A stretch of DNA of 64,000 nucleotides from a phage. Below are positions 16,524 through 44,473 of the stretch, in pieces (the first letter of the stretch is position 1; every line of letters begins with the position of its first letter). The stretch lies in the NCBI GenBank assembly GCA_012490745.1, contig GCA_012490745.1_3925.1; one strand, given 5' to 3'. A program made the translations under genes and the position numbers. The notes under the pieces were generated by a model. The model was not told where the DNA came from, made no database searches, and saw only the letters and a program-made list of their open reading frames with translations.

Positions 16524-18890
16524 ATGCGCATGGTAAACGACCACGCAGAAGTGATTAAGAGTTCAACTTCTTTAGAGACGTCTCAAGCACAGATTACAAT
16601 GACACCTGAAATGTTCAGCCTTTTGAGTTCCGGTGTATACACATTTAAAGAAAGGGCAGTGATTCGTGAACTGTCATGTAACGCAGTAGATGCTCAAAAA
16701 GAAGCTGGAAAAGAGAACATCCCGTTCCATGTGCATTTACCTACTCGATTTGAGCCTTACTTTGAAGTCCGTGACTTTGGAACTGGTTTAACCCATGACA
16801 AAGTAATGAGTTTGTATCTGAACTATGGGGCTTCTACGAAGAATGACTCTAATGACTACATTGGTGCAATGGGTATCGGCTCAAAGTCACCGTTTGCGAT
16901 TGCTCAGTCATTCACAGTGTCTAGCTATGTTGATGGTGTTGTTAATAAGTACTCTGTTTACCTTGAGAATGGTATTCCTCAAGTAACTAAGCTTACTACT
17001 AACCAAACAAATGAACCTAATGGTTTAGCTGTACGTGTGGCAGTTGCTGACCACCGTATTTCAAAGTTCTTTGAAGAGGCTGGTAATGTATACTCATACT
17101 TTGCTGTAAAACCAGAGAGTAATGTGGAGTATAATGATATATTAGCAGATATGGATGTGATTGCTCGTGAAGAAGGTGTCTATGATGCCATGACTCATAA
17201 GCATAGCTGGCGTTCAAGCAGCAATAGAACAGAGTTTAACGTGGTTATGGGTAATATTGCCTACCCAGTTAATATGGAGGCATTACTTGGTGATGATTTC
17301 TTCAAAGTATTACCAGAATTTTTCCGCAGGAGCATAGACCTTGTAAACATCTACATGCCTATTGGTTCAGTTGCTATTGCAGCTTCTCGTGAAGCATTGC
17401 AGATGAATGACACGACAAAAAATGTTATCATCGAGGCTACTAAAAAGATAACTGAAGCAATTACAAAGGATGTTATCAAGAAAGTTAATAGTCAACCTAC
17501 ACTCATGGATGCTGCACAGGCTTATGCTGAGTTACGCTTGAACTCACGAGAGATGTTTAATGCTGTGTGTCCAAAGCTAGAGTGGGGAGGCGTTAAGCTT
17601 GATTCTCTGGAAGAAGAATTACTAAACATTCGTCGTGGGATTATCTACGCAGAAGACGGCTCAGTCATTTATGAACGTGACGGCAAAGGCAATATTAAGG
17701 TTGACAGCAAAGGAAACAATATCCCTAAAGTTGACTACCTATACAATCCAGTTGCTTATGTCAAGTTCAACTCTTTAGAGAGTAAGATTCGTGCAACAGC
17801 ACTTTCCTACACTCAAGAGGCAAGTATGTTCAATATCTTTGGTGCAATGCGTAAAAGTCAAATTGAACAGTTTTTGTTTGTTATTAATGACCGTCGCAAT
17901 AAAAACGGTACTGAGAAGACTGTAGGCCGCAATCAGATTCTGCGTGGTGCATGTCGAGACTACGCCAGTGAGTCCAGTCTGTTTCACAGATATAATGGCA
18001 TTGTGTTTGTATTCTCGACTGAAAAAGAGTTAGATGATTTAATCAATCTACACAAACTTGATAAAAGCTTGTTAAAGATTGTGAAAATGTCTGATAAGGA
18101 GCACCATTACCAGCGTAAAGAAGCTGTAAGGGGTGTTGTAAAACTCTGGAAAGCTGTTCCAGCAGAAGGTGTAGCTTCCTATAAAGAGGTTTCAGAGGAC
18201 TTTGATACAATTGAAGAGCCTCAGCTTTACATTAAGGCAGTTGGCGACACAGTTGATGGCGAATGTTTTTGCTCATCTCCAGAAGATGTAGCCAAGTCAG
18301 TTGCTAATGTTACAGGGAAGACAGTCTATGTTTTCCGAAAAGCAAATTGGAAAAAGATACCAGAAGACTGGATTGAAGTAGATGAGAAACTCTTGAACGA
18401 CAGCTTAACTGATGTTCATTGGATTAATCATAACAGATATATGACACGCATCTACATGAATGGTGTTCTTGACCTGACAAGCAGTTGGATTATTGCCAGA
18501 AACTTTACGTTCAATAACAGGAAGATTTCTCGTGGCTATTGCTATTCACGGGATACAAACAAAACTATCTTCCTAGAAGGAAATGAAGATGCTGTAGAGG
18601 CAATGTTTGGTAAAATCCAATACGTTGCTGCACCATTTGCATACACTTATACTATTAGTGTATTGAAAACTTTGAAAGACTGTCTTGACAATGATACAAA
18701 GCTTTACAAGAAAATTAAGAAAGCTGGTGACCGTATGGTCATTAAGGTGACAAACTACCTTTCAAAAAGAAAACAAGAAAACTTCTTGCTTTCTCATTTG
18801 GATTGGAATAAAGTGTCACCCATCGAAGTGAGTAAGTTCTTAGGCTTTGATGTAAAATGTGTTCCAGAAGGGACTACAATTTACGATTAA
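16524..18890 (+). CDS. rIIA: rIIA-like protein with GHKL-type ATPase N-terminal domain
   Basis: 788 aa; N-box-like RELSCNAVDA, G1-like VRDFGTGL, G2-like GAMGIGSKS in the order expected for a histidine-kinase-like ATPase fold as found in rIIA. Confidence 0.6.
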   Translation: MRMVNDHAEVIKSSTSLETSQAQITMTPEMFSLLSSGVYTFKERAVIRELSCNAVDAQKEAGKENIPFHVHLPTRFEPYFEVRDFGTGLTHDKVMSLYLNYGASTKNDSNDYIGAMGIGSKSPFAIAQSFTVSSYVDGVVNKYSVYLENGIPQVTKLTTNQTNEPNGLAVRVAVADHRISKFFEEAGNVYSYFAVKPESNVEYNDILADMDVIAREEGVYDAMTHKHSWRSSSNRTEFNVVMGNIAYPVNMEALLGDDFFKVLPEFFRRSIDLVNIYMPIGSVAIAASREALQMNDTTKNVIIEATKKITEAITKDVIKKVNSQPTLMDAAQAYAELRLNSREMFNAVCPKLEWGGVKLDSLEEELLNIRRGIIYAEDGSVIYERDGKGNIKVDSKGNNIPKVDYLYNPVAYVKFNSLESKIRATALSYTQEASMFNIFGAMRKSQIEQFLFVINDRRNKNGTEKTVGRNQILRGACRDYASESSLFHRYNGIVFVFSTEKELDDLINLHKLDKSLLKIVKMSDKEHHYQRKEAVRGVVKLWKAVPAEGVASYKEVSEDFDTIEEPQLYIKAVGDTVDGECFCSSPEDVAKSVANVTGKTVYVFRKANWKKIPEDWIEVDEKLLNDSLTDVHWINHNRYMTRIYMNGVLDLTSSWIIARNFTFNNRKISRGYCYSRDTNKTIFLEGNEDAVEAMFGKIQYVAAPFAYTYTISVLKTLKDCLDNDTKLYKKIKKAGDRMVIKVTNYLSKRKQENFLLSHLDWNKVSPIEVSKFLGFDVKCVPEGTTIYD

Positions 18891-18895
18891 AGTGT

Positions 18896-18925
18896 TTGAC
18901 AAGGGGCTTCAAAGCCCCTTAAAAT
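18896..18925 (+). promoter_or_regulatory. sigma70-like promoter with palindrome in spacer (TTGACA-18-TAAAAT)
   Basis: TTGACA at 18896-18901, 18-nt spacer consisting of palindrome AGGGGCTTCAAAGCCCCT, TAAAAT at 18920-18925. Confidence 0.4.
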
Positions 18926-18969
18926 GGCATCACAAAATGATTTATTAACTAACAAGAGAGAGTAATAAG

Positions 18970-20079
18970 ATGACTACTAAAACTAAAGCACAGATTGACG
19001 CAGAAATTTACAAACTGGTTAAAGAGGGCAAGCTGACTAAAACCGCTATTGCACAGAAATTTAACACCTCAACCCGTTCAGTCGGTCGTGCTGTAGAGCG
19101 TCATGAAGCAACCTTAAAAGGGAATAAGAAGGTGACTTCTACACCAGCTACGAAGACTTTGAAGCAAGTTGCTAAGACCTTTAAAAAGAAAGCTGACAAA
19201 CCAGTTGAAAAGGTTGTTAAAGATGCTGTACAGAAAGCTCCAGTAAATAAACTGCATGAAGCTATGCAGAAAGATGACAAGATTGAGTACATGATTACTG
19301 GTGACTCTGTAATTATGACTTACGGTTCAGAGTCTGAAATTGTTGAATCTACTCATCCGAACTATCAAGAGATTGTAGTTCATGTTGTGAAAGGTGAGTT
19401 TAAGAAAGCCTTTGAACTGATGAACATTCGTAAGTCTATCGAAAACTTCACTCAGGGTGCTATCACAATCAAAGGCGACAAACTATTCTACGGTGCTGTT
19501 GAGATGCGTTCTACTCTGGTTGACCGTATTCTTCACATGATGAAGACTGGAGATAAAGGTTTCGAACGCCTTGTGATGTTCTTCGAAAAACTGATGGAAA
19601 ACCCATCTAAAGATTCCGTAGAACAACTTTGGGGCTTCGTATCTCACCTTGATGTTGAAATTGATGAAGAAGGCTACATCATTGGTTGGAAGAAAGTATC
19701 TACTCGTGAAGGCAAGCTGGTTGACTCCCACACCTACAGAGTACCTAATGATTTGGGTAACATTGTAGAAATGCCACGTTGGATGGTTGATAATAACCGT
19801 AACGTGACTTGCTCTCAAGGTCTTCATGTTGGTGCTTGGGATTATGTTCGTTGTTTCTCAGGTGATACAATTCTGAAGGTTCGTGTCCATCCACGAGACG
19901 TTGTATCCGTACCAACTGATTACAACGATATGAAGATGCGCTCGTCTCGTTATGAAGTTGCAGCAATCGTTGATAATCAACGTAAAGTGCTGAAAGCATG
20001 GGATGGCAAGACTGAAGCTTTACATGTCATCGTTGGTACTGCTGGAGAACTTATCTCCCAACGTAAACGTGAAATCTAA
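18970..20079 (+). CDS. rIIB: rIIB-like protein
   Basis: 369 aa immediately downstream of the rIIA-like gene; assignment mainly by synteny and size. Confidence 0.45.
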   Translation: MTTKTKAQIDAEIYKLVKEGKLTKTAIAQKFNTSTRSVGRAVERHEATLKGNKKVTSTPATKTLKQVAKTFKKKADKPVEKVVKDAVQKAPVNKLHEAMQKDDKIEYMITGDSVIMTYGSESEIVESTHPNYQEIVVHVVKGEFKKAFELMNIRKSIENFTQGAITIKGDKLFYGAVEMRSTLVDRILHMMKTGDKGFERLVMFFEKLMENPSKDSVEQLWGFVSHLDVEIDEEGYIIGWKKVSTREGKLVDSHTYRVPNDLGNIVEMPRWMVDNNRNVTCSQGLHVGAWDYVRCFSGDTILKVRVHPRDVVSVPTDYNDMKMRSSRYEVAAIVDNQRKVLKAWDGKTEALHVIVGTAGELISQRKREI

Positions 20080-20094
20080 TAAGTAATTTCTTAA

Positions 20095-20120
20095 AAGGCT
20101 GCTTCGGCGGCCTTTTTTAT
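20095..20120 (+). terminator. rho-independent terminator (GGCTGC-TTCG-GCGGCC + T6)
   Basis: GC stem with TTCG loop and TTTTTT. Confidence 0.7.
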
Positions 20121-20148
20121 TTGTATTTTGTGCAGAGTGCTGTATAAT
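20121..20148 (+). promoter_or_regulatory. sigma70-like promoter (TTGTAT-16-TATAAT, TG upstream of -10)
   Basis: Perfect TATAAT at 20143-20148 preceded by TG; -35-like TTGTAT at 20121-20126. Confidence 0.45.
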
Positions 20149-20179
20149 TGTTGTCACGATAAACTAAACAGGAGAACCA

Positions 20180-20728
20180 ATGAAGAAATTGATTCTAGGT
20201 TTGTGCTTAATGTTTACAGCACACTTATCTTATGCAGTTGACTGCCCAGAGCTATCAATTAGCCAAAAAGTAAACATGTTAAAAGCTTACCAGTATGGTG
20301 AGAATAACATGGGTAAAGGTTGGGGTATCACTCTAGCTGCTATAGCCTTACAAGAGTCAGAGTTAGGTCTGAAGGTAGAGAATAAAAAGACACATGATTA
20401 TGGTATTTTCCAGAATCACTTGAAGACTGTTGTAAAGCGTAACAAAATTAGTCCTAATGTGGCTAAAAAGAAACTCTTAAGAGACTTTGACTATGCTGCA
20501 AAGGAAACGCACAAAGAACTTGAATTTTGGACAAAGGTGCATGGTCAGCCAAAGTCAAAGAAAACTTTACAAAAAGTTTTAGCATCATATAATGCTGGGT
20601 ATTCGTACAGAATCCCTAAAGCTAAAAAATATTCTCAAGATGTCTATAACAACATGAAAGTTATCGCTCAATGTGAATTTGCAACAAACATTTCTAAGGT
20701 AAATCATGAAAAAATTAAGAAAGTCTGA
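20180..20728 (+). CDS. secreted protein with possible lytic-transglycosylase (SLT-like) domain
   Basis: Signal peptide MKKLILGLCLMFTAHLSYA; AIALQESELG...DYGIFQN resembles the SLT E-S ... G-L/I-x-Q motifs. Confidence 0.4.
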   Translation: MKKLILGLCLMFTAHLSYAVDCPELSISQKVNMLKAYQYGENNMGKGWGITLAAIALQESELGLKVENKKTHDYGIFQNHLKTVVKRNKISPNVAKKKLLRDFDYAAKETHKELEFWTKVHGQPKSKKTLQKVLASYNAGYSYRIPKAKKYSQDVYNNMKVIAQCEFATNISKVNHEKIKKV

Positions 20729-21885: not shown

Positions 21886-21910
21886 ACAGGCTCCTTCGGG
21901 AGCCTTTTTC
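21886..21910 (+). terminator. rho-independent terminator (AGGCTCC-TTCG-GGAGCCT + T5)
   Basis: Perfect stem and TTCG loop, TTTTT. Confidence 0.75.
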
Positions 21911-21928
21911 ATTTCAGGAGATTGTTAA

Positions 21929-22276
21929 ATGACATTTAAAGAGTTCTGTCAAGCTACTTTCATAATTGTTTTCTTAGTTGGGGCGGGTGTCTGGGGAGGG
22001 TACTCTTACAGAGACTACCAAGTTGCTGAAACTGAGCTAAACAATCAAAAGCTCATAAGTGTTGCTAAAGATGCTTATCAGGAAGGATTAGTTACACTGA
22101 GCGCCAATTACAAAAATGATTTGAAAGATGTGCTTGCTAAGAATAAGCACACAAAAGAGGTACTAACATATGAAAAAACTAAGCCAGAGTTTTATAATGT
22201 TTGTGTTACTGATAATTATGTCAGGGTGTTCAACGAACAAAGTGAACAGTACATTCAAAAACTCCCAAGTAAGTGA
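21929..22276 (+). CDS. i-spanin-like protein (Rz-like)
   Basis: N-terminal TM helix (FIIVFLVGAGVWGG) followed by charged helical periplasmic region; the next gene starts inside it in another frame. Confidence 0.4.
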   Translation: MTFKEFCQATFIIVFLVGAGVWGGYSYRDYQVAETELNNQKLISVAKDAYQEGLVTLSANYKNDLKDVLAKNKHTKEVLTYEKTKPEFYNVCVTDNYVRVFNEQSEQYIQKLPSK

Positions 22277-22439
22277 GAGTGATAAGTACACTCAAGAAGA
22301 ATCACGGTATATCATCAAAGGCAACACAGGCAGTGATGTAGCAGCAGCACTTGAGTTCTACCGTGACGGCTTTTACCAGTGTACAATTAAAGCTAATAAC
22401 CTTATTGACATGATTTTATTAGGGAATAAGCAGCAATGA
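22170..22439 (+). CDS. o-spanin-like lipoprotein (Rz1-like), embedded/overlapping in a different frame
   Basis: Signal peptide with lipobox-like IIMSGC; start lies within the preceding ORF. Confidence 0.4.
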   Translation: MKKLSQSFIMFVLLIIMSGCSTNKVNSTFKNSQVSESDKYTQEESRYIIKGNTGSDVAAALEFYRDGFYQCTIKANNLIDMILLGNKQQ

Positions 22440-22705
22440 CAGAGAATCAAGACACTTTCTATGTAGAAGGTTACTTACTGTTGCCACGACCAAAAGAAAC
22501 TTATATGCGAATCGATTTCTTACCAACCATTATGGATAATGTGATGTGTCATATCTTTATGCAAGGTGTCACAGCACAGCTTAAGCATGTTGGTAAAGAT
22601 TGCAAAATAAAGGTTGACACTCATCCAGAAATCAAAGAGAATCACTACACATGGTTCTTACCAGATTCTAAAGAAATCTTAGCAGTTCTTAAAACGAGGA
22701 AGTAA
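22436..22705 (+). CDS. hypothetical protein
   Basis: ORF, ATGA overlap. Confidence 0.4.
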   Translation: MTENQDTFYVEGYLLLPRPKETYMRIDFLPTIMDNVMCHIFMQGVTAQLKHVGKDCKIKVDTHPEIKENHYTWFLPDSKEILAVLKTRK

Positions 22706-22707
22706 CT

Positions 22708-23034
22708 ATGCAGATTAATGGAAGAGACTTTGTAGCCGTTTACTACGAGAAAGATAAAGAAGTTGGCGTAGCACAAGTAACTTACGGCAATGGTAAGTGG
22801 CTATATGGAACAATTGCAGTGGTCGGAACAAGAAGTGACACAAAAACTTTTAAAGATTGTGTTGACCTTCTTGAAGAATCCATTCAGAATCATTGGTGTC
22901 TGATATGGATGACTGACAACGAAGTGATAGAACGCTTCAAAAAGATTGATATCAACATTGATAGTATTGAGCATGTTGATTTATATGAGCTAACTGAGAA
23001 GGTAAACTATGAAAGTAATACTAGCCAGAGATAA
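22708..23034 (+). CDS. hypothetical protein
   Basis: ORF. Confidence 0.4.
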   Translation: MQINGRDFVAVYYEKDKEVGVAQVTYGNGKWLYGTIAVVGTRSDTKTFKDCVDLLEESIQNHWCLIWMTDNEVIERFKKIDINIDSIEHVDLYELTEKVNYESNTSQR

Positions 23035-23236
23035 AAAGACACGAAAGCTTATCAGGTCAGCAGTGTTCATTGGACGAAATGAGGTCATCCCATTTACAGC
23101 AAATGATGTGATAGCTTACAGGAAGAACTTAGTATTCACTGACTGCTTACGTGGCTTCATCTCTGAACCATTGGAAGACTTTAAAAGTCGTTGTGGTAAA
23201 GGTATCATCATTCAAGAGGCAATTATTCATGGCTGA
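23009..23236 (+). CDS. hypothetical protein
   Basis: ORF. Confidence 0.3.
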   Translation: MKVILARDKKTRKLIRSAVFIGRNEVIPFTANDVIAYRKNLVFTDCLRGFISEPLEDFKSRCGKGIIIQEAIIHG

Positions 23237-23429
23237 CTTCTGTAAAGATTGTTCTATCGAAATGTTCGGACGTGATACAGGTGACTTAAAAGGTCTTATC
23301 ACTGAAGATGACTTTAAAGCTGGCTACGCAATGCCAGTAATCTGTGAAGGTTGTGGGTGCGTCTGGGTAGACCACGAAGGGCAACGTGTAAAACCTTCAG
23401 AAGATAAAGAATCTTGGGAGAGATGTTAA
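23229..23429 (+). CDS. hypothetical small Cys-rich protein
   Basis: 66 aa from ATG 23229; CKDC ... CEGCGC pairs suggest a Zn ribbon. Confidence 0.35.
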   Translation: MADFCKDCSIEMFGRDTGDLKGLITEDDFKAGYAMPVICEGCGCVWVDHEGQRVKPSEDKESWERC

Positions 23430-24215
23430 ATGGGTATTGTAAAAATCATCAATGGCGATATCTTTGCAGCATTTGATAAAGGTAAGTTTGACATCATTGG
23501 TCACGGTTGCAACTGTATGAATTTAATGGGTGCAGGTATCGCTGACAAGATTTCTAAACTTTACCCAAAAGCATATGAGACCGATACAGAAGTTTACCTC
23601 TATGCAGGTGGTATAGGTCACAAACCCTGTGAAAATCTACTGGGTAATTTCTCTGTAGCACGTTTAGAACAAGGCCGTATAGCTAACCTTTACACTCAGC
23701 TTAAGACTGGTAAAGATGCCCGATACAGTGCTTTAGAGTCATCTTTGAAACAACTTAACAGATACTGTGAAGTCAATCAGTTGAAGAAAGTTGGGTTACC
23801 TATGATTGGTGCAGGTATCGGTGGACTAGACCCTCAAGCCGTCACAGTTATCATTAATCAGGTGATGAAGAGTGTAGATGTGTATCTTTATGTCTACGAA
23901 GGAGAGATGTACCACAAGTTACGCTCAGGTTGGAAGAACTACTGTGAACCAGAATACTTTGCAGGTGTAGCAGTGTTCACAGATAACGCAGTTACCCTCT
24001 TCAGACGAAGAAAAGGTAAGATACATCAAAGTAACCCTCCGGTTGAAAAGATGTCTCTAAGTAACGCTCTAGTTACCCACCTGTCGAAGAGCAATCACAG
24101 GATTGCAGTAACATTTGGCAGTGATGCAGATACTTATATCTATGCAAGAACTGATGAGGATATCGAGACAGTTTTCTCTTCACCAGAAGTTACCTTCTTA
24201 GACGCAAAGAACTAA
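23430..24215 (+). CDS. macro-domain protein (ADP-ribose binding/processing)
   Basis: INGDIFAAFDKGKFDIIGHGCNCMNLMGAGIADKI and VGLPMIGAGIGGLDPQ resemble the two Gly-rich macro-domain signature blocks; about 100-aa C-terminal extension. Confidence 0.55.
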   Translation: MGIVKIINGDIFAAFDKGKFDIIGHGCNCMNLMGAGIADKISKLYPKAYETDTEVYLYAGGIGHKPCENLLGNFSVARLEQGRIANLYTQLKTGKDARYSALESSLKQLNRYCEVNQLKKVGLPMIGAGIGGLDPQAVTVIINQVMKSVDVYLYVYEGEMYHKLRSGWKNYCEPEYFAGVAVFTDNAVTLFRRRKGKIHQSNPPVEKMSLSNALVTHLSKSNHRIAVTFGSDADTYIYARTDEDIETVFSSPEVTFLDAKN

Positions 24216-24287
24216 GAAACTCTGTAGGATATTCACAATAGCCTAAGCCTTTCTTATCTGGTAAATTTTTCAGGTAAGGAGGGCTTT

Positions 24288-24470
24288 TTCATTTCAGAAT
24301 TGTGCAGGTAGAGTTCTGTAGAGAAATCTGTAGAGAGAATTTTGAACTCCAAAGAGAAAATTCATTTTCAAACTGTGCAGATAATCTCCAAAGAGCTTTT
24401 TCATTTTCAAAACGTGCAGACCACACTCAGGTCGGGCAAGAAAAATCATTTTAGATTTGTGCAGGTAGGT
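24288..24470. repeat. four direct repeats of about 20 bp (TTCATTTTCAAAnnGTGCAG-type), iteron-like
   Basis: Copies near 24288, 24361, 24399, 24445; also duplicated CTCCAAAGAG and TCTGTAGAGA words; followed by C-rich tract (24491-24530) and AT-rich DNA. Confidence 0.6.
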
Positions 24471-24642
24471 TTTTATAGAGAGCCAGACCAACCCCTCTCC
24501 CCCTCTTACTCCCCCTCTCCCCAAAAATCAAGAGAAAAATTTGTAGCGGATTGAAAAATAATTCTTGATTTGTGTTCTGTTTTGTGGTAGTCGTGTGCGC
24601 CCGTTTCATTACAGTTTTGCCAAAAATATTTTTAAAATTTTT

Positions 24643-24736
24643 TCTTGACTCTTTGAACGTGGTTATCTAGTATTTGCATCAACGGGGAGGGAATGACCTT
24701 CCCCACTAAATAAAGTCCTAAACTGGAGATTCAAAA
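24643..24736 (+). promoter_or_regulatory. cassette A1: promoter (TTGACT-17-TAGTAT) + leader stem-loop GGGGAGGGAATGACCTTCCCC + conserved SD
   Basis: Hairpin 24684-24704; leader CCACTAAATAAAGTCCTAAACTGGAGATTCAAAA-ATG ending at ATG 24737. Confidence 0.6.
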
Positions 24737-25120
24737 ATGGCATATCGTGCACCTAAATTCATCAACAAAGACAACTTTCGCAACGCACTGGAGAAGTCAC
24801 TTGATGAGAATTTTAAAGGTAACATTATCGTTGTTCACGCATTCAATTTTAAGTATGATGTAAACGGGAATAGAATCAACCATTACACGGCAACCATGTT
24901 AGATGGTACACTTTCAAGTGAAAAAGCCGTACTAAATGCACTGGCAGGACGTGGAAAGGTATTAGTAAGATGTGATAAGAGACGTTATCAGGGCGGCGCA
25001 TATGGTTATGATGATGCTGTTTACCATCTTGAAAATATGGGCTATCAAGTAGAAAAAGCTGGAGCATCACAAATCATCGGCAGCGATGGTTATGTAACTA
25101 TCTTCAAAATTAACAAATAA
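24737..25120 (+). CDS. hypothetical protein (cassette-linked)
   Basis: ATG placed 8 nt after the conserved GGAG of cassette A1. Confidence 0.55.
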   Translation: MAYRAPKFINKDNFRNALEKSLDENFKGNIIVVHAFNFKYDVNGNRINHYTATMLDGTLSSEKAVLNALAGRGKVLVRCDKRRYQGGAYGYDDAVYHLENMGYQVEKAGASQIIGSDGYVTIFKINK

Positions 25121-25205
25121 AGTACTTTACAAGGGGCTTATAGTTCGATAAAGTAAGCCCCAGATAAAGAGCTTTACCACTAAATCCTAAACTGGAGATT
25201 CAAAA
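25121..25205 (+). promoter_or_regulatory. cassette B1: TTTACA-17-TAAAGT promoter-like element overlapping hairpin GGGGCTTA(13)TAAGCCCC + conserved SD leader
   Basis: Hairpin 25133-25161 with 8-bp perfect stem; leader AGATAAAGAGCTTTACCACTAAATCCTAAACTGGAGATTCAAAA-ATG. Confidence 0.5.
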
Positions 25206-25718
25206 ATGAAAACTGTAGACGCTACCTTTGAAGTTGTAAAAGAAAAATTTTCCATCATTTACGAAGCAGTTAATTGCTTTGAAGCAAGCCATAATCTTGA
25301 TAATTGGGAATTTACAGATGACCATCAAGGCGGTGTGACGATTAAAAATCCTAGCTGTCAGCGTAATGAATTTAAATATGCAATCCCTTTACATTACAGC
25401 CTTAAACAGCTTTCAAGTGACTATGCAAAACAAGGCCGGGAAAACCCATCAAAAGAGGCTTACATCAGCTTACAGAAAGAACTAGAAAGAGATTTAGAGG
25501 CTTCAGAATATAACATCGCCGCGAAAGTTGTAGATGCAAACGGTAGCACGGTTTTAGAGAGTTTTTATATTGGTTATGCTTTCGATTGGTGCTATCATGA
25601 CGGCGATGATTTAGAGGATAGACTAAAAGAAGAGGTGAACAACGCAGACGCAGAATCTGAAGTATTAGAACGTTTGGAATCGTTGAAAGACTCAGTGATG
25701 AATATCTTTAAGAACTAA
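25206..25718 (+). CDS. hypothetical acidic protein (cassette-linked)
   Basis: 170 aa, acidic (many D/E), ATG at conserved cassette position. Confidence 0.55.
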   Translation: MKTVDATFEVVKEKFSIIYEAVNCFEASHNLDNWEFTDDHQGGVTIKNPSCQRNEFKYAIPLHYSLKQLSSDYAKQGRENPSKEAYISLQKELERDLEASEYNIAAKVVDANGSTVLESFYIGYAFDWCYHDGDDLEDRLKEEVNNADAESEVLERLESLKDSVMNIFKN

Positions 25719-25721
25719 ATA

Positions 25722-25810
25722 GATTTCTTTACACGGGGTTATCAGACTGATAAGATAGCCCCAGATAAAGAGCTTTATTCAAATCAACCCTTAAACTAGG
25801 AGATTCTAAA
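25722..25810 (+). promoter_or_regulatory. cassette B2 (variant): TTTACA-17-TAAGAT + hairpin GGGGTTATC...GATAGCCCC + SD
   Basis: Hairpin 25735-25762 with one G-U pair; same downstream leader. Confidence 0.45.
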
Positions 25811-26107
25811 ATGAAATTATCAAATCAAGTGCGTGAGAATCTGAGCAAATTACTCAACAAAATTGATTTCATTGAAACATCAAGGAATAGTCATGATGTT
25901 ATGGAATGGTTACACGGCAAAATAAAAGGCCGTCGTGTAGTGATTTGCTTATGGAACAGTTGCAGGGAGTATAAAAAACCTGTATTGCAAGTCAATATCT
26001 ATGATGATACTTTTAAAAGCCCTGTAAAGTCTAAAAACGACTTATTAGAATCCTATGAGATAACTGTAAGTGGCAAAGTATCACGTAAAGAGGAAACACC
26101 ATGTTAA
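25811..26107 (+). CDS. hypothetical protein (cassette-linked)
   Basis: ATG at conserved cassette position. Confidence 0.5.
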   Translation: MKLSNQVRENLSKLLNKIDFIETSRNSHDVMEWLHGKIKGRRVVICLWNSCREYKKPVLQVNIYDDTFKSPVKSKNDLLESYEITVSGKVSRKEETPC

Positions 26108-26433
26108 TGACTGGTATCACTGCAATCATTGCCATTTTCGCGCTATATAAGGCATATAAAGCCTATAATCTAGCAAATAAGGCAATCACACAGCAGGTTA
26201 GAAATAACCTTGTAGAGAGCTTTCTAGGGCGTCTCAGTGATGAGCAAATAAAGCGGCTAGAGATGAGCTTCAGATACAAAGCGAAAACCTATCAGATAAG
26301 TGACATCTTCAAAGATAATTTTCAGTTAGTTGATGATTATAATTCTCTGATAAATGCTTTAAATGTCAGTGACTTAAAAGACTACTACGCTGTAATTGTT
26401 CAAGAGTTGAGCAAACGAAAACAAAACTGTTGA
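26107..26433 (+). CDS. hypothetical membrane protein
   Basis: TAATG stop/start overlap with upstream gene; N-terminal TM helix (GITAIIAIFALY). Confidence 0.4.
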   Translation: MTGITAIIAIFALYKAYKAYNLANKAITQQVRNNLVESFLGRLSDEQIKRLEMSFRYKAKTYQISDIFKDNFQLVDDYNSLINALNVSDLKDYYAVIVQELSKRKQNC

Positions 26434-26522
26434 CACTGGTTTTTAGATAGATTAAATTACACATCAACGGGGAGGGAATGACCTTCCCCACTAAATAAAG
26501 TCCTAAACTGGAGATTCTGAAA
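26430..26522 (+). promoter_or_regulatory. cassette A2: TTGACA-17-TAAATT promoter + leader hairpin + SD
   Basis: TTGACA 26430-26435; hairpin 26469-26489; conserved leader to ATG 26523. Confidence 0.6.
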
Positions 26523-26795
26523 ATGTATACTACTAACAACGGTCGCACCTTAAATGTCACCTTGCGTCACTATGTAGACGGTGTGATGTGCTTTGAAGAT
26601 TTACGGGCTGAGCAACACATCTTAAATTGGCAAGTTGCAGGACTCCAAAAAACTGCTACAGGATACGGGAAAAAGATTCCAACCAGTTGGAAAGTACACT
26701 ACGAAGGACGTTTGCGCAGAATTTATCAGGATGTGCAAAGCAATAGCGCATCGAGTTACATTATAGTAAAAGGCAAAAAACTGCATTTAATGTAA
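26523..26795 (+). CDS. hypothetical protein (cassette-linked)
   Basis: ATG at conserved cassette position. Confidence 0.5.
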   Translation: MYTTNNGRTLNVTLRHYVDGVMCFEDLRAEQHILNWQVAGLQKTATGYGKKIPTSWKVHYEGRLRRIYQDVQSNSASSYIIVKGKKLHLM

Positions 26796-26796
26796 A

Positions 26797-26881
26797 GTAC
26801 TTTACAAGGGGCTTATAGTTCGATAAAGTAAGCCCCAGATAAAGAGCTTTACCACTAAATCCTAAATTGGAGAACTTAAAA
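26797..26881 (+). promoter_or_regulatory. cassette B3
   Basis: Hairpin 26808-26836 (GGGGCTTA...TAAGCCCC); near-identical to B1. Confidence 0.5.
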
Positions 26882-27286
26882 ATGGCTATTAATAACCGTG
26901 AATTATCAATTTTAAAAGCACGTTTGACCGTTAACCGGATTAATGTTATCACGTCATCAGCACCAGATGAAACACTGCAAAACATTATTGGGAAGATTCA
27001 AAGTGTTATCTTAGACGTTGAAAGCGTAAAAAATTCATTGGCTGACGTTGCAGCAGGTATCACACTAGACGGTGCGCAATATGAAATGTCCGACATGTTA
27101 GGCAAATCTAAGGTAATGAATAAAGAGTTAGATTTGAAAATGTTCCGATTTGCTGTTAAAGTGTGGCTATCTGTCGAGTATGATGCTAACTTTGCAATCG
27201 CTGACTTTTTCGCCACTTGGTTGCAGCGTAATTTGACTAATCATGACTTCCGCGATATCTGTGATGCAATTTATGCAGAACTCTAA
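26882..27286 (+). CDS. hypothetical protein (cassette-linked)
   Basis: ATG 26882 at cassette position (the track start 26867 is TTG). Confidence 0.5.
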   Translation: MAINNRELSILKARLTVNRINVITSSAPDETLQNIIGKIQSVILDVESVKNSLADVAAGITLDGAQYEMSDMLGKSKVMNKELDLKMFRFAVKVWLSVEYDANFAIADFFATWLQRNLTNHDFRDICDAIYAEL

Positions 27287-27296
27287 AAAAATTTTG

Positions 27297-27388
27297 TTGA
27301 CACTGGTTTTTAGATAGATTAAATTACACATCAACGGGGAGGGAATGACCTTCCCCACTAAATAAAGTCCTAAACTGGAGATTCAAAA
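27297..27388 (+). promoter_or_regulatory. cassette A3: TTGACA-17-TAAATT + hairpin + SD
   Basis: Near-identical copy of A2; hairpin 27336-27356. Confidence 0.6.
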
Positions 27389-27592
27389 ATGGCTATTATT
27401 AATGGTTTAACCATTGAAACTACACACATCAAAGATATCAAAGTTGGCGATATAGTCCTTTCCCACGGCGTAGAAAAAACTGTCACTGCAAAGGATATCA
27501 AAGAGGATTCTTTCATGGGTAGGACTCTCTTCGGTGATTCTTATTGCTTAGGCTATCTTGCAGTTTTAAAAGTTGTCAAAAATAACAAATAA
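27389..27592 (+). CDS. hypothetical small protein (cassette-linked)
   Basis: 67 aa; ATG at cassette position. Confidence 0.5.
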   Translation: MAIINGLTIETTHIKDIKVGDIVLSHGVEKTVTAKDIKEDSFMGRTLFGDSYCLGYLAVLKVVKNNK

Positions 27593-27678
27593 AGTACTTT
27601 ACAAGGGGCTTAAAAGTTGATAACTTAAGCCCCAGATAAAGAGCTTTACCACTAAATCCTAAACTGGAGATTCTAAAA
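27593..27678 (+). promoter_or_regulatory. cassette B4 (variant loop)
   Basis: Hairpin 27605-27633 GGGGCTTAA...TTAAGCCCC (9-bp stem). Confidence 0.5.
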
Positions 27679-27927
27679 ATGATGAACTACTTTAACATTC
27701 CCGATACCTGTAGATTATTGACACAAGAAGAAAATTTGGGTAAACCTTTCATTTACCACATGCCAGATAACACGGCAAAAACTTATAGTTACAATGTTAA
27801 CCGTTTCACCGCATACGCTGCAAAGAACGGCTATAGGTTGGTTACTCAAAAAGTAATGCTGGTTACAACTGCTGGCGAGATTCCTACAGTTGCAGTCAAA
27901 CTAGTTTTCTCAAAGAAAGTTAAATAA
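27679..27927 (+). CDS. hypothetical small protein (cassette-linked)
   Basis: 82 aa. Confidence 0.5.
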   Translation: MMNYFNIPDTCRLLTQEENLGKPFIYHMPDNTAKTYSYNVNRFTAYAAKNGYRLVTQKVMLVTTAGEIPTVAVKLVFSKKVK

Positions 27928-28012
27928 AGTACTTTACAAGGGGCTTATAGTTCGATAAAGTAAGCCCCAGATAAAGAGCTTTACTACTCAATCCTAAACT
28001 GGAGATTCAAAA
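27928..28012 (+). promoter_or_regulatory. cassette B5
   Basis: Hairpin 27940-27968; same as B1/B3. Confidence 0.5.
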
Positions 28013-28555
28013 ATGAAATGTTATCACGGAACTACTCAAGAAAATTTCCTCAACCTGATTAATAACGGTGATAAACCATCAGGCGCATGGAATTGTTCGG
28101 ATATGGACGGCAATTTTTACGTGTATCCAGAAAATAAAATCTATGGCGACGATGATGAAGAGATAACATCGGAGGGCATTCAGCAAGCTCTAGGGAACGC
28201 CACTATTACGGCGGCCTTCCAGATGAAAACCCAAAATATTGTTATCTTAGAACTCGATATTCCAGATGATGAGCTAAATGATGATTATTCTTGTGATAAT
28301 ATGTCGAGTGTAGCAAGTTTTACAGAGTACTTTGATGTAAACTGGATTAAAAAGGTCTATACAACAGAGTTTAACGCTATGTATTCGCCTTTTTGTCTTC
28401 CTTCACTGGATAACCCAAATATGAACTATCTTGATGAGACATTAGAACTACTTGCTAAAAGTGTTCAACAGTCGGACAGTATTCAGGTTTTTTGTGACAT
28501 CATGGATACACTGACAGGAAACATCGCAGAAGAGGATTTAAAGAGCTTTTTCTAA
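28013..28555 (+). CDS. hypothetical highly acidic protein (cassette-linked)
   Basis: 180 aa; D/E-rich stretches (DDDEEITSEG, DIPDDELNDDY). Confidence 0.55.
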   Translation: MKCYHGTTQENFLNLINNGDKPSGAWNCSDMDGNFYVYPENKIYGDDDEEITSEGIQQALGNATITAAFQMKTQNIVILELDIPDDELNDDYSCDNMSSVASFTEYFDVNWIKKVYTTEFNAMYSPFCLPSLDNPNMNYLDETLELLAKSVQQSDSIQVFCDIMDTLTGNIAEEDLKSFF

Positions 28556-28587
28556 AAACCTATGCAATCACCTTATAAACACTATTT

Positions 28588-28607
28588 AGCCCCTTACAGG
28601 GGCTTTT
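28588..28607 (+). terminator. rho-independent terminator (AGCCCCT-TAC-AGGGGCT + TTTT)
   Basis: Perfect 7-bp stem then T-run; followed by SD GGGAGG and ATG 28622. Confidence 0.6.
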
Positions 28608-28621
28608 GGGAGGCTTAAATC

Positions 28622-28855
28622 ATGCTTACAACCGTTTACCTCATCCTTTCTATTTGTAACGGTCATTCATGCGATTTTAAAGGGCTTGAAGAGTTTACAG
28701 GAAGTAAAGAAAATGCTATTCAAGTTTGCCAGATAGCAAGACAAGACTATCCCGCTAGTGATGATATACAATGTTACTTTAAGACAGAAGATGAAGACGG
28801 TATCTATTTTGACAGCGTAGATGGTCAGTATGAAATTATCATTGAAAAAGACTAG
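28622..28855 (+). CDS. hypothetical small protein
   Basis: 77 aa; SD GGGAGG 8 nt upstream. Confidence 0.45.
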   Translation: MLTTVYLILSICNGHSCDFKGLEEFTGSKENAIQVCQIARQDYPASDDIQCYFKTEDEDGIYFDSVDGQYEIIIEKD

Positions 28856-28869
28856 ACAAGCCTGATAAA

Positions 28870-28946
28870 AATCTGTAAATTGTCAATCAACGGGGAGGGA
28901 ATGACCTTCCCCACTAAGTACAATCCTTAAACTAGGAGATTCAAAA
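28870..28946 (+). promoter_or_regulatory. cassette A4: (TAGACA-17-TAAATT) + hairpin + SD
   Basis: Hairpin 28892-28912 GGGGAGGGAATGACCTTCCCC. Confidence 0.5.
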
Positions 28947-29288
28947 ATGGCTTATGTAACCGTAATTACCGATAAAGAAAATTCATCTTGGTCAACTCAA
29001 GTAAGTGATAAGATGTCACCTATGCAGTGCCTAAAATACTTTGAGCAGTGGAACAAAGGCGAGGATGTCAGCCCCTTTCAAGTGATGCAAATCATCCATA
29101 CAGATAACGAAGGGAATAAAACGGTTTTAAATAGTGAGTACTACGCAAGCCGTTTTGAAACTAGAAGTAAAACAATGAAGCTTTTACGTGAATCCGGTTA
29201 TGCCCATATCGCCGCGCTAATCTGGGATGACCTGCTAAAAAGACAGCGTATCAGCTATGTAAAACCTGAAAAAATATTCATCAGTTAA
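28947..29288 (+). CDS. hypothetical protein (cassette-linked)
   Basis: 113 aa. Confidence 0.5.
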   Translation: MAYVTVITDKENSSWSTQVSDKMSPMQCLKYFEQWNKGEDVSPFQVMQIIHTDNEGNKTVLNSEYYASRFETRSKTMKLLRESGYAHIAALIWDDLLKRQRISYVKPEKIFIS

Positions 29289-29410
29289 TCAATAACTTAC
29301 AAAAAACTTTTAAAAAAGTGTTGACAATACCCATTGACATTGGTAACTTTGTTCGAGGGGGTTATCTAAAAGGGATTCACTTAAAAGATTCTTTATAGAT
29401 AAGCTTAAAA

Positions 29411-29507
29411 AATTGCTTGCAATCAGCTATCAAAACAAGTAAATTACTAATCAACGGGAGGGATGACCTCCCCACTAAATAAAAATCCTTAAACTAGGAG
29501 AGTCAAA
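29411..29507 (+). promoter_or_regulatory. cassette A5: TTGCAA-17-TAAATT + hairpin GGGAGG-GATGA-CCTCCC + SD
   Basis: Hairpin 29456-29473; conserved TAAATTACTAATCAACGGG and leader. Confidence 0.55.
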
Positions 29508-30038
29508 ATGAACAAGTTTAAAGCTATCAACTTCATTCGTTCAAATGCTGTAATGTCTAAGCCTGTAAAAGATACATATGAATTCCGTTGTAATGGGGTA
29601 CATTTCGCAACAATCACCAAATCAGAAAACGGGGCTTATTACGTTCATCGTCGTAATGTCTCAACCGTTGTAGTCTCTCACTTTATGCAAGCTGTAGCGG
29701 AATTATTACCGTTATTCTTAGAGATTTATCTAGATGAGTGTAAAAACGTTCACAACCACGTTAAAAACCTTTTAAACGGTTATAAAATGGCTTATGAACG
29801 TTCTATCAAGTCACTAAACAAGTTTTACAATGCACCTGCAAATACTGTTTCAATGGCTTATGATGTAAACGGTGAGTTAGTTAGTCTCTTTAAAGTGGAA
29901 GAAATTAAACTGTATAATTTACGTCCTAGTGGTTACTCTAAGACTCTTGGTGAAGGTTTAACGTTCAATATCAAGAACTTAGAAAAAACTTTAAAAGATA
30001 TTGAAAAAGATATTGACGAGACAATCAAAAGTCTGTAA
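29508..30038 (+). CDS. hypothetical protein (cassette-linked)
   Basis: 176 aa. Confidence 0.5.
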   Translation: MNKFKAINFIRSNAVMSKPVKDTYEFRCNGVHFATITKSENGAYYVHRRNVSTVVVSHFMQAVAELLPLFLEIYLDECKNVHNHVKNLLNGYKMAYERSIKSLNKFYNAPANTVSMAYDVNGELVSLFKVEEIKLYNLRPSGYSKTLGEGLTFNIKNLEKTLKDIEKDIDETIKSL

Positions 30039-30103
30039 ATTACTAATCAACGGGAGGCGATAACCTCCCCACTAAATAAAACCCTTAAACTAGGAGATTC
30101 AAG
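30013..30103 (+). promoter_or_regulatory. cassette A6: TTGACG-17-TAAATT (promoter overlaps 3' end of upstream gene) + hairpin + SD
   Basis: Hairpin 30052-30070 GGGAGG-CGATAA-CCTCCC. Confidence 0.55.
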
Positions 30104-30367
30104 ATGGAAAACGTAGAATTAACCACACTTTTACAAATTGCAACCGACAAAGAAGATGTAGCATTATTTCACCGTATTGAAAGTGATTTGTTCAATGGTG
30201 AAATCATCAAAGAATCTTACGAAGTTGTCGGATTCAAAGATGGTAAAGCGTTTGGCTTTTTTGACCTCGATAAAGGCAACGCTGTTACAAAATATGATGT
30301 TTTATCTTGTGAGATTCTTACAAAATACAACGAAAAAAGGCTTGCAACATACGCCAATATGCAGTAA
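30104..30367 (+). CDS. hypothetical protein (cassette-linked)
   Basis: 87 aa. Confidence 0.5.
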   Translation: MENVELTTLLQIATDKEDVALFHRIESDLFNGEIIKESYEVVGFKDGKAFGFFDLDKGNAVTKYDVLSCEILTKYNEKRLATYANMQ

Positions 30368-30432
30368 ATTACTAATCAACGGGAGGGATGACCTCCCCAC
30401 TAAATAAAACCCTTAAACTAGGAGATTCAAAA
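30333..30432 (+). promoter_or_regulatory. cassette A7: TTGCAA-17-TAAATT + hairpin + SD
   Basis: Hairpin 30381-30398; leader to ATG 30433. Confidence 0.55.
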
Positions 30433-30681
30433 ATGGCAACTATCCGCGCTACTGTTAACGAGTTCGGTTTTTCCTCTCTGGATGTTAAATTTGACATTGC
30501 AGGCACTGATAACGCCTTTGAAATGGTGAAATGTCTTATCAGTCAGACCATCAAAGACTATAATCCTTCGGATGAGTTCTGGGAGGAAACAAAACAAGAA
30601 GTTCTCAAGGATGGTTATACTTATCACTATTGGGGAGAAAAAATCGTCTCCCTGTACTACAACAAACAAGATTATAACTAA
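30433..30681 (+). CDS. hypothetical protein (cassette-linked)
   Basis: 82 aa from ATG 30433 (the track start 30388 lies inside the cassette). Confidence 0.5.
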   Translation: MATIRATVNEFGFSSLDVKFDIAGTDNAFEMVKCLISQTIKDYNPSDEFWEETKQEVLKDGYTYHYWGEKIVSLYYNKQDYN

Positions 30682-30719
30682 TCGACGCAGCGGGGCTATT
30701 TAGCCCCAGATACCCTAAC

Positions 30720-30745
30720 AGCCCCTATTTAAAGGGGCTTTTTTA
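30720..30745 (+). terminator. rho-independent terminator (AGCCCCT-ATTTAA-AGGGGCT + T6)
   Basis: Perfect 7-bp stem and TTTTTT; preceded by a second hairpin GGGGCTATTTAGCCCC (30692-30707). Confidence 0.7.
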
Positions 30746-30749
30746 CGTC

Positions 30750-32340: not shown

Positions 32341-32357
32341 GAGGCTCTTAAGATATT

Positions 32358-44390: not shown

Positions 44391-44473
44391 CGGGGCGTAT
44401 CTCAGCGGTCTTCTAAACCGCCGTTAACCGAGTAAGTGGAGTATGCGGGTTCGAGTCCTGCCGCCTCGACCAA
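44391..44473 (+). tRNA. atypical tRNA-like gene (possible Arg, anticodon TCT), D-arm irregular
   Basis: Good acceptor CGGGGCG/CGCCTCG, T-arm GCGGG-TTCGAGT-CCTGC and CCA; hairpin GCGGT-CTTCTAA-ACCGC; no canonical D-stem found. Confidence 0.35.

What the first reader, a model, noticed from the sequence alone, without database searches (positions are those of the whole stretch)
24288..24640. Iteron-like direct repeats, C-rich tract and AT-rich segment upstream of the island: candidate replication origin or regulatory hub
Four copies of a 20-bp motif (TTCATTTTCAAAnnGTGCAG) at irregular 39-72 bp spacing, plus duplicated CTCCAAAGAG and TCTGTAGAGA words, are followed by a polypyrimidine run (CCCCTCTCCCCCTCTTACTCCCCCTCTCCCC) and an AT-rich stretch. 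Repeats plus an unwinding-prone element is an origin-like layout; it could equally be a regulator-binding array. GTGCAG also appears by the promoter at 20131.
Basis: seen in the sequence. Interest (0 to 1): 0.5.

Follow-up and report, generated by a model that had tools for sequence, protein, structure and literature searches.

The report
Conserved repeat array in Felix O1-like phages
A non-coding gap in this Felix O1-like phage genome holds four copies of a 19-base motif that is kept in every known lineage of the phage subfamily, so it is almost certainly a docking array for an unidentified protein, but there is no specific evidence that it is a replication origin.

Summary
The window is a Felixounavirus genome (99% to phages LMP33/LMP25). 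The repeats are real. Four same-strand copies of TCATTTY-N6-GTGCAG lie at 24289, 24362, 24401 and 24446, in a 521-bp non-coding gap (24216-24736). The gap runs from the macro-domain gene's terminator to the first early promoter.

The core motif occurs nowhere else in the ~88-kb genome. One variant copy overlaps a sigma70-like promoter at 20117-20135.

Homologous arrays of 3-6 units are present in all Ounavirinae lineages examined, including four very divergent ones. Against Mooglevirus-like and Suspvirus-like contigs, fourfold-degenerate sites differ 36-44%. The cores differ 7-17%, the CTCCAAAGAG boxes 0-10% and the spacers 15-65%.

No ORF, Rfam family or RNA covariation explains the array.

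The "origin-like" extras do not hold up:
- The AT-rich run is an unexceptional UP element of the promoter TTGACT-17-TAGTAT.
- The C-rich tract (a G-quadruplex motif on the minus strand) is replaced in one Felixounavirus subclade.
- No initiator gene was found.
- The least stable DNA in the window lies 7 kb away, in the terminal region.

Best reading: a DNA-level binding-site array for a co-evolving, probably phage-encoded protein, most likely controlling early transcription. An origin remains the main rival. I found no published description.

The parts
24245..24294 (+). Intrinsic terminator of the upstream operon: a 17-bp stem (24245-24261 pairing with 24270-24286) plus a T-tract. The T-tract runs into array unit 1.
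   Evidence: Found by the terminator scan and the fold. The 5' arm changes in step with the 3' arm in L033 and in Mooglevirus-like contigs. It matches terminator t13 of Felix O1, the most stable in that paper's table at -21.8 kcal/mol (PMC3185647).
24289..24307 (+). Array unit 1 core, TCATTTCAGAATTGTGCAG. This is the long form, followed by GTAGAG and two TCTGTAGAGA boxes.
24315..24336 (+). Two tandem TCTGTAGAGA boxes with a 12-bp period. A third box of the same family starts at 24473. These belong to the YTRTWRAGA word family, which is also enriched in the terminal non-coding region.
   Evidence: The same word follows the last array unit in the distant lineage L104.
24347..24380 (+). Array unit 2: 5' box CTCCAAAGAG (24347-24356) plus core TCATTTTCAAACTGTGCAG (24362-24380).
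   Evidence: The 5' box differs 0-10% from the Mooglevirus-like and Suspvirus-like contigs.
24386..24419 (+). Array unit 3: 5' box CTCCAAAGAG (24386-24395) plus core TCATTTTCAAAACGTGCAG (24401-24419).
24431..24464 (+). Array unit 4: 5' box GTCGGGCAAG plus core TCATTTTAGATTTGTGCAG (24446-24464). It corresponds to unit 3 of Erwinia phage phiEa21-4.
24492..24522 (+). C-rich tract. On the minus strand it reads as a canonical G-quadruplex motif, GGGG-N3-GGGGG-N7-GGGGG-N3-GGGG. It is present in most lineages but replaced by an unrelated ~60-nt block in one Felixounavirus subclade. Several assemblies break here.
24523..24593 (+). Conserved block D. It is A/T-rich and ends in a promoter-like element, TTGATT (24565-24570) - 17 nt - TAGTCG (24588-24593). 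The element is conserved as TTGAYW-17-TAnTnG but lacks the T at position -7.
   Evidence: (8-16% difference across genera)
24594..24614 (+). Deeply conserved TGTGCGCCCGTTTCATTACAG, just downstream of the promoter-like element. It is also present in the distant lineage L106.
24616..24673 (+). The AT-rich stretch (24616-24644), acting as the UP element of the sigma70-type promoter TTGACT (24645-24650) - 17 nt - TAGTAT (24668-24673). This promoter drives the first gene of the small-gene island.
   Evidence: Other island promoters are also preceded by A/T runs. GenBank record MZ726791 annotates a promoter at the matching position.
24684..24739 (+). Leader of the first island gene: hairpin GGGGAGG...CCTTCCCC (24684-24704), Shine-Dalgarno GGAG (24725-24728) and start codon ATG (24737). 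This module is repeated before many island genes.
   Evidence: (repeat families D8, D9)
20117..20148 (+). Fifth, degenerate motif copy, TTATTTGTATTTTGTGCAG (20117-20135). It overlaps the -35 element and spacer of the promoter TTGTAT-16-TATAAT (20121-20148), just after the rIIB terminator.
   Evidence: It is conserved in Felixounavirus and Mooglevirus-like contigs.

Best explanation
The four repeats are a cis-acting array of DNA binding sites for one sequence-specific protein.

Anatomy:
- Each site has an asymmetric bipartite core, TCATTTY-N6-GTGCA(G/T).
- Most units also carry a 5' box of about 10 bp that differs between lineages.
- Both boxes drift from lineage to lineage while the architecture stays the same. 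The binder is therefore more likely phage-encoded and co-evolving than a universal host protein.

Setting: the array belongs to a conserved non-coding control region. Its order is strong terminator, then the array, then a variable GC-rich spacer, then an A/T-rich block with a promoter-like element, then a UP element with an early sigma70 promoter.

Most likely function: the bound protein controls transcription at the head of the early small-gene island, by repression or shut-off, activation, or insulation from read-through. It probably acts on the promoter at 20121-20148 as well, since a fifth site overlaps that promoter's -35 element and spacer.

Shown here: the repeats, their uniqueness in the genome, purifying selection on them, the absence of coding or structured-RNA signal, and the promoter and terminator context.

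Inferred: that a protein binds, that it is phage-encoded, and that the output is transcriptional.
For: - The motif is statistically real and confined to this gap plus one promoter in the whole genome.
- Homologous arrays of 3-6 units, always on the gene strand and always after a terminator, occur in Felixounavirus, SUSP2 and Mooglevirus-like contigs, Kolesnikvirus phiEa21-4, Pectobacterium phage Arno162, and three uncharacterised lineages whose macro-domain proteins are only 35-44% identical.
- For L104, the array is the only DNA with detectable similarity to any GenBank phage.
- Window against the cross-genus contigs: fourfold sites 36-44% different, cores 7-17%, 5' boxes 0-10%, spacers 15-65%.
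- Information content peaks in two blocks, TCATTT and GTGCA.
- Spacing varies between lineages (37/37/39; 73/39/45; 75/41/45; 77/39/45). This argues for independent sites rather than a fixed structure.
- No conserved ORF exists. The array stretch has no plus-strand ATG in most lineages, and spacing changes between lineages are not multiples of three.
- There is no Rfam hit at E <= 1. RNAalifold finds no compensatory pair and an unfavourable covariation term.
- The fifth copy lies inside a promoter and is conserved in two genera.
- The flanking genes are early: genes 13, 16, 20, 21 and 22 are maximally expressed at 5 min in Felix O1 (PMC3185647).
Against: - No binder is identified. Neighbouring proteins have no DNA-binding Pfam or PHROG annotation.
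- The array lies 100-180 bp upstream of the nearest promoter elements, which is far for a classical operator.
- The fifth site matches the core at only about 13-14 of 19 positions and could be coincidental to the promoter.
- Nothing here separates a transcriptional output from a replicative one.
Confidence: 0.4

Rival explanations
1. Replication origin. The repeats would be iterons bound by an unidentified phage initiator. Unwinding would occur in the adjacent A/T-rich blocks, helped by transcription from the downstream promoters.
For: - Direct, same-orientation 19-bp repeats under strong purifying selection across the subfamily.
- A/T-rich blocks (76% and 86% AT) and promoters within 60-180 bp.
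- No origin has been described for these phages in the papers searched.
- A partial extra copy in a promoter would fit initiator autoregulation.
Against: - The AT-rich DNA is unexceptional (z = 2.2-2.5). The least stable DNA in the window is at 31.4-32.3 kb.
- Spacing is not in helical phase and changes between lineages.
- No Rep-, O- or DnaA-like protein is encoded nearby.
- The downstream gene differs between close relatives.
- The replisome genes are a fused primase/helicase and a DNA polymerase, with their own divergent, repeat-rich intergenic region elsewhere in the genome.
- The match to the DnaA box is 8 of 9 in the phiEa21-4-type units but only 6 of 9 in Felix-type units (my reading of the sequences).
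Confidence: 0.2
2. RNA-level element. The array would be transcribed, by read-through or from an unrecognised promoter. Its tandem units would act as unstructured protein-binding or processing modules, for example a decoy or sponge for a host or defence RNA-binding protein, comparable to ToxI-like antitoxin mimics.
For: - The units are 37-47 nt, and in phiEa21-4 they sit head to tail (37, 37, 39), as in type III antitoxin arrays.
- All copies are on the strand of the flanking genes in every lineage.
- Phage phiTE carries an RNA antitoxin mimic of this general kind (PMC3475682).
Against: - The array starts inside the T-tract of the genome's strongest terminator, and no conserved promoter precedes it.
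- There is no conserved RNA structure or covariation.
- There is no significant similarity to the ToxI repeat, which I recalled from memory; only the word GTGCAGnTAG is shared.
- A-rich cleavage-type motifs occur only in some units.
- A defence-specific decoy is unlikely to be kept across phages of Escherichia, Salmonella, Citrobacter, Erwinia and Pectobacterium.
Confidence: 0.12
3. A signal tied to the genome end. The array would mark the inner border of the DNA next to the right terminus. It lies about 7.3 kb, or about 8% of the genome, from the terminal-repeat homolog. It could act in DNA entry (a pause signal like the one in T5) or in terminus-related transactions.
For: - The terminal-repeat homolog maps to 31138-31728.
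- The interval between the array and the terminus is filled with small early genes that each have their own promoter.
- The word family YTRTWRAGA is enriched both in the gap and in the terminal non-coding region.
- In L103 the array is followed directly by TTGTTA-type words like those of the terminal region, and the contig ends there.
Against: - No evidence of stepwise injection exists for these phages.
- Contig ends are unreliable markers of genome ends.
- In L106 ordinary genes follow the array.
- Packaging recognition sites normally lie within a few hundred bp of the cut site (general knowledge).
Confidence: 0.07
4. Non-functional relic of duplicated intergenic cassettes (a terminator tail plus leader sequence), or a chance repeat.
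For: Unit 1 resembles the terminator tail and leader at 21897-21925, CTTTTTCATTTCAGGAGATTGT. The island is full of duplicated intergenic modules (PMC3185647).
Against: - Units are conserved far above the neutral rate across lineages whose proteins are only 35-65% identical.
- The chance expectation is 0.52 hits against 7 observed.
Confidence: 0.03

Closest known systems
Iteron clusters of plasmid and phage origins (ori-lambda, P1 oriR, SPP1 oriL, T4 oriE). Comparison made from general knowledge.
   Same: Several direct, same-orientation repeats of about 19 bp with two conserved blocks, lying in non-coding DNA next to A/T-rich sequence and promoters.
   Different: - Unit spacing is 37-47 bp (73-77 bp once), out of helical phase and variable between lineages.
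- There is no adjacent or overlapping initiator gene.
- There is no outstanding unwinding element.
- DnaA-box likeness is seen only in some lineages.
Multi-site regulatory regions of lytic phages, such as the phi29 p4/p6 binding sites between early and late promoters. Comparison made from general knowledge.
   Same: An array of sites for a small phage protein in the non-coding region that organises early transcription, with sites both upstream of and overlapping promoters.
   Different: No sequence or protein homology is known. The binder is unidentified, and the distance to the promoters is larger.
Type III toxin-antitoxin RNA repeats (ToxI) and the phage pseudo-ToxI of phiTE (PMC3475682)
   Same: Non-coding direct repeats of about 36-45 nt in a lytic phage genome, all on one strand.
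   Different: - The units are degenerate, not near-identical.
- The array follows a terminator rather than a promoter.
- There is no significant sequence similarity and no conserved fold.
- It is conserved subfamily-wide instead of being patchy.
Injection stop signal region of phage T5, a repeat- and palindrome-rich non-coding DNA at about 8% of that genome. Comparison made from general knowledge.
   Same: A conserved, repeat-rich non-coding segment about 8% of the genome length from a terminus, bordering a block of small early genes.
   Different: Two-step injection is not known for Felix O1-like phages. T5's region lies inside a 10-kb terminal repeat, whereas here the terminal repeat is about 0.6 kb and lies 6.7 kb away.

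Membership tests
Iteron-type replication origin | Three or more direct repeats of about 17-22 bp in one orientation | tested here: met
   Four 19-bp cores on the plus strand.
Iteron-type replication origin | Regular spacing that places the sites in helical phase | tested here: not met
   Spacing is 73/39/45, 75/41/45, 77/39/45 or 37/37/39 bp depending on lineage.
Iteron-type replication origin | Adjacent, markedly unstable A/T-rich unwinding element | tested here: not met
   The best 40-60 bp stretch in the gap has z = 2.2-2.5, and 351-763 positions in the window are less stable. The stretch coincides with a promoter UP element.
Iteron-type replication origin | Cognate initiator gene next to or overlapping the repeats | tested here: not met
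   No Rep-, O- or DnaA-like domain in 20 neighbouring proteins. The macro-domain protein's C-terminal domain has no DNA-binding fold match. The downstream gene is not conserved.
Iteron-type replication origin | Replication starts here (marker-frequency peak or autonomous replication) | not testable with these tools
   Needs experiments or raw read data from infected cells.
Transcription-factor operator array | Sites under purifying selection relative to the DNA between them | tested here: met
   Cores 7-17% and 5' boxes 0-10% different, against spacers 15-65% and fourfold sites 36-44%.
Transcription-factor operator array | Sites overlap or lie close to the regulated promoters | tested here: inconclusive
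   The fifth copy covers roughly -38 to -20 of the promoter at 20121-20148. The array itself is 100-180 bp upstream of the promoter elements at 24565 and 24645.
Transcription-factor operator array | Identified cognate regulator | not testable with these tools
   No candidate emerged from the domain or fold searches.
Type III antitoxin-like RNA repeat array | Near-identical head-to-tail repeats transcribed from an upstream promoter | tested here: not met
   The units are degenerate. The array begins in a terminator T-tract with no promoter.
Type III antitoxin-like RNA repeat array | Similarity to a known antitoxin repeat, or a conserved pseudoknot | tested here: not met
   Local alignment to ToxI (sequence recalled from memory) is weak: shuffled units score as well in 9-141 of 500 trials. 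No covariation was found.
Structured non-coding RNA (Rfam families) | Match to a covariance model, or covarying helices | tested here: not met
   No Rfam hit at E <= 1 in 22000-27000. 0 of 40 predicted pairs are compensatory.
Direct terminal repeat / packaging site | Coincides with the physical genome ends | tested here: not met
   The 581-bp terminal repeat annotated in the Pr103Blw record, found by PhageTerm according to its paper, maps to window 31138-31728.
Cluster of sigma70 promoters (as T7 A1-A3) | Each unit carries -35 and -10 elements at 16-18 bp spacing | tested here: not met
   The promoter scan finds no plus-strand promoter in 24288-24470. No conserved TAnnnT lies at a fixed distance from the core (my reading).
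DnaA-box cluster | Matches to TTATNCACA conserved across lineages | tested here: not met
   The reverse complement of GTGCATAG gives 8 of 9 in the phiEa21-4-type units, but Felix-type units give only 6 of 9 (my reading of the sequences). Arno162 units have diverged further.

The most novel reading that the evidence does not exclude
The array is transcribed and works as RNA: a tandem set of unstructured protein-binding modules, conserved across the subfamily, that titrates a host or defence RNA-binding protein or nuclease. That would make it a non-coding anti-defence or host-takeover RNA kept by all Felix O1-like phages.
Probability: 0.08. Interest if true: 0.8.

Novelty: new variant of a known kind. 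Interest (0 to 1): 0.55.

Why it matters
Felix O1-like phages are classical typing phages and are widely used for biocontrol and therapy. Even so, the Felix O1 genome paper states that how transcription is timed in this phage is not known, and none of the papers I searched identifies a replication origin.

This array is the most strongly conserved non-coding DNA found here across the subfamily. In one divergent lineage it is the only stretch still recognisable at the nucleotide level. It therefore gives a concrete, short probe for fishing out a key regulatory or replication protein. It is also a site that engineers of these phages should not disturb unknowingly.

Tried and rejected
- **Genome terminus or packaging site.** Rejected: the terminal-repeat homolog maps to 31138-31728.
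- **Small protein genes in the gap** (annotated in some GenBank records). Rejected: the ORFs change frame and length between lineages, start at TTG or GTG, and merely translate the repeats.
- **Known RNA families and conserved RNA folds.** None found.
- **Promoter cluster.** No -10 elements; sigma-E, sigma-54 and T4 MotA-type patterns, checked by eye, did not fit.
- **DnaA, IHF, Fis, CRP and marbox sites.** Checked by eye against consensus sequences recalled from memory. Only the phiEa21-4-type units resemble a DnaA box.
- **ToxI similarity.** Not significant.
- **The motif outside this phage group.** Scans of bacterial genomes and metagenomes returned only Ounavirinae-like contigs plus unrelated tandem repeats.
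- **Hairpin 24522-24574.** Its arms are not kept in the VpaE1-type allele.
- **Literature.** No paper in the library describes this array or an origin for these phages.

Full report
**What the window is.** The 2.4 kb around the finding matches 250 phage records. Escherichia phages LMP33 and LMP25 are the best at 99%, and nearly all the rest are Felixounavirus (Felix O1-like myoviruses). The finding lies in a 521-bp gap without genes, 24216-24736. Upstream is a macro-domain gene (23430-24215; Pfam Macro). Downstream is the first gene of a run of small genes of unknown function (24737 onward).

**Checking the observation.** All the listed words are present.
- The 19-mer TCATTTTCAAANNGTGCAG with up to three mismatches gives 7 hits in the window against 0.52 expected. 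The only plus-strand hits are the clustered four at 24289, 24362, 24401 and 24446, with spacing of 73, 39 and 45 bp.
- Units 2 and 3 carry the box CTCCAAAGAG.
- Unit 1 is followed by two TCTGTAGAGA boxes, and a third box of that family follows unit 4.
- The C-rich run 24492-24522 has 22 C and no G.
- GTGCAG at 20130 belongs to a fifth, weaker copy at 20117-20135.
- The remaining ~24 kb of the genome, read from LMP33, has no further copy.

**What the surroundings are.**
- The gap opens with a 17-bp hairpin and T-tract (24245-24294). This is terminator t13 of Felix O1, the most stable in that paper's table (PMC3185647). Unit 1 starts inside its T-tract.
- The gap closes with a sigma70-type promoter, TTGACT-17-TAGTAT (24645-24673), followed by a leader hairpin and ribosome-binding site that recur before many island genes.
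Other island promoters have the same A/T run, so it is best read as a UP element.
- As an unwinding element it is ordinary: z = 2.2-2.5, with hundreds of less stable positions. The minima are at 31.4-32.3 kb.
- In Felix O1 the macro-domain gene (13) and island genes 16, 20, 21 and 22 peak at 5 min. This is an early region.

**Not the genome end.** Felix O1-like phages have short direct terminal repeats: 608 bp in UAB_Phi87 (PMC4837284) and 581 bp in Pr103Blw (PMC8303462). The Pr103Blw repeat maps to window 31138-31728. That is 6.7-7.4 kb to the right of the array.

**Comparative evidence.**
- Spread: the gap is present at 88-99% identity in about 200 records, and parts of it in 292. Loci fetched through the macro-domain protein and through a two-copy DNA pattern show the array in Felixounavirus, in SUSP2-like and Mooglevirus-like contigs, and in Kolesnikvirus phiEa21-4. 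A few genomes have three units; phiEa21-4 has four contiguous 37-39-bp units ending in GTGCATAG.
- Divergent lineages: macro-domain protein relatives at 35-44% identity led to three uncharacterised lineages with arrays of 4-6 units (L103, L104, L106). Pectobacterium phage Arno162 has four units. In L104 the array is the only DNA similar to any GenBank phage.
- Shared layout: in every case the array follows a terminator, is on the gene strand, and precedes a GC-rich variable stretch and promoters.
- What drifts: the 5' box of the unit is lineage-specific (CTCCAAAGAG, GGTCTGGCAAG, GGACTAACGAG, GGCACGAGRC, GTCACATYG). The core itself has drifted in Arno162.
- Outside this group: scans of bacterial genomes and metagenomes returned only such phage contigs plus unrelated tandem repeats.

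**Selection.** The window was compared with Suspvirus-like and Mooglevirus-like contigs.

| Segment | Difference |
|---|---|
| Fourfold-degenerate sites of the macro-domain gene | 36-44% |
| The four cores | 7-17% |
| CTCCAAAGAG boxes | 0-10% |
| Block 24523-24572 | 8-16% |
| Spacers | 15-65% |

The units are therefore functional. Information content peaks in TCATTT and GTGCA.

**DNA or RNA, coding or not.**
- The gap ORFs that some records annotate change frame and length between lineages and use TTG or GTG starts. The array has no plus-strand ATG in most lineages.
- Rfam gives nothing.
- The plus strand folds only slightly better than shuffles (z = -2.3, terminator included), and the minus strand folds worse than shuffles.
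- RNAalifold on eight cross-genus sequences finds no compensatory pair.
- No promoter precedes the array.

A DNA-level protein-binding array is the simplest reading. An unstructured RNA role is not excluded.

**The C-rich tract.**
- On the minus strand it is a textbook G-quadruplex motif.
- Of 32 distinct sequences, 21 carry the C-rich form (19 of them with the motif). The other 11, all apparently from one Felixounavirus subclade, carry an unrelated block. One sequence shows slippage-type expansion of the tract.
- Two IMG/VR contigs end at window 24512, one running into a Nextera adapter. A Mooglevirus-like contig ends just past the tract. The LMP34 record ends at 24501.
- The tract is old but dispensable, and it disturbs sequencing or assembly. 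It is not a fixed part of an origin layout.

**Origin or regulator.**

For an origin:
- direct 19-bp repeats;
- nearby A/T-rich DNA and promoters;
- no origin known for these phages.

Against an origin:
- spacing out of helical phase and variable between lineages;
- an ordinary AT-rich block;
- no initiator-like neighbour;
- a variable downstream gene;
- a T7-type fused primase/helicase and a polymerase with their own repeat-rich divergent intergenic region;
- a far more unstable and repeat-dense terminal region.

For a regulator:
- the position between the strongest terminator and early promoters;
- a fifth copy covering the -35 element and spacer of a promoter, conserved in two genera.

I favour a regulatory binding array (0.4) over an origin (0.2), an RNA role (0.12), a terminus-linked signal (0.07) and a relic (0.03). 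The remainder is left open.

**Novelty.** The Felix O1 and UAB_Phi87 papers, and the GenBank annotations I examined, mention the terminator, a promoter and other repeats, but not this array. Literature searches found no description of it.

Noticed in passing
window 30682-32357 (terminal-repeat homolog 31138-31728): This 1.6-kb stretch has no listed ORF of 90 aa or more and holds the homolog of the phage's direct terminal repeat. It is packed with short words (CTTGTTAG 8 times, TGTTAAG about 13 times, YTRTWRAGA 11 times on the plus strand). It also contains the least stable DNA of the window. It is a better candidate than the finding for an unwinding or packaging region.
   Followed up: partly
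window 24316, 24328, 24473 and 31299-32245: The 9-mer family YTRTWRAGA (for example TCTGTAGAGA) is enriched on the plus strand both beside array units 1 and 4 and in the terminal non-coding region. It also follows the last array unit in the distant lineage L104 (near 4165). This could be a second site type linking the array to the genome end.
   Followed up: partly
window 24492-24522; loci L019, L020, L034, L102; GenBank MK482690 and KT184313: Several independent assemblies end inside this gap. Two end at window 24512 (one continues into a Nextera adapter), LMP34 ends at 24501, and L102 ends at the promoter with adapter sequence. This suggests a coverage drop at the C-rich / G-quadruplex tract, or an unusual DNA feature there.
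   Followed up: partly
window 24565-24614: The promoter-like element TTGATT-17-TAGTCG is conserved in all lineages as TTGAYW-17-TAnTnG, but always lacks the usual T at position -7. It is followed by the deeply conserved TGTGCGCCCGTTTCATTACAG. This may be an unusual promoter and transcript start.
   Followed up: partly
[not shown]
   Followed up: partly
window 24737-30681: This island of about 14 small genes of unknown function has nearly every gene preceded by one of two recurring promoter, hairpin and ribosome-binding-site cassettes. The first gene after the array differs between closely related phages, so the region is mosaic.
   Followed up: partly
locus L025 (IMG/VR contig 3300045988_004180), from about base 2507: The contig switches abruptly from the phage gap (after CAGGTCGGG, between units 3 and 4) to unrelated GC-rich sequence. 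It is probably a chimeric assembly.
   Followed up: no
locus L101 (LMP33 record 18593-18960 and 20046-20340, outside the window): Two further non-coding stretches near the ligase gene consist of ACCTNACC-type short periodic repeats plus shared words such as CTCTTAAAAGAC. Their function is unknown.
   Followed up: no
window 42784-47733: A cluster of 25 tRNA genes on the plus strand, as expected for Felix O1-like phages.
   Followed up: no
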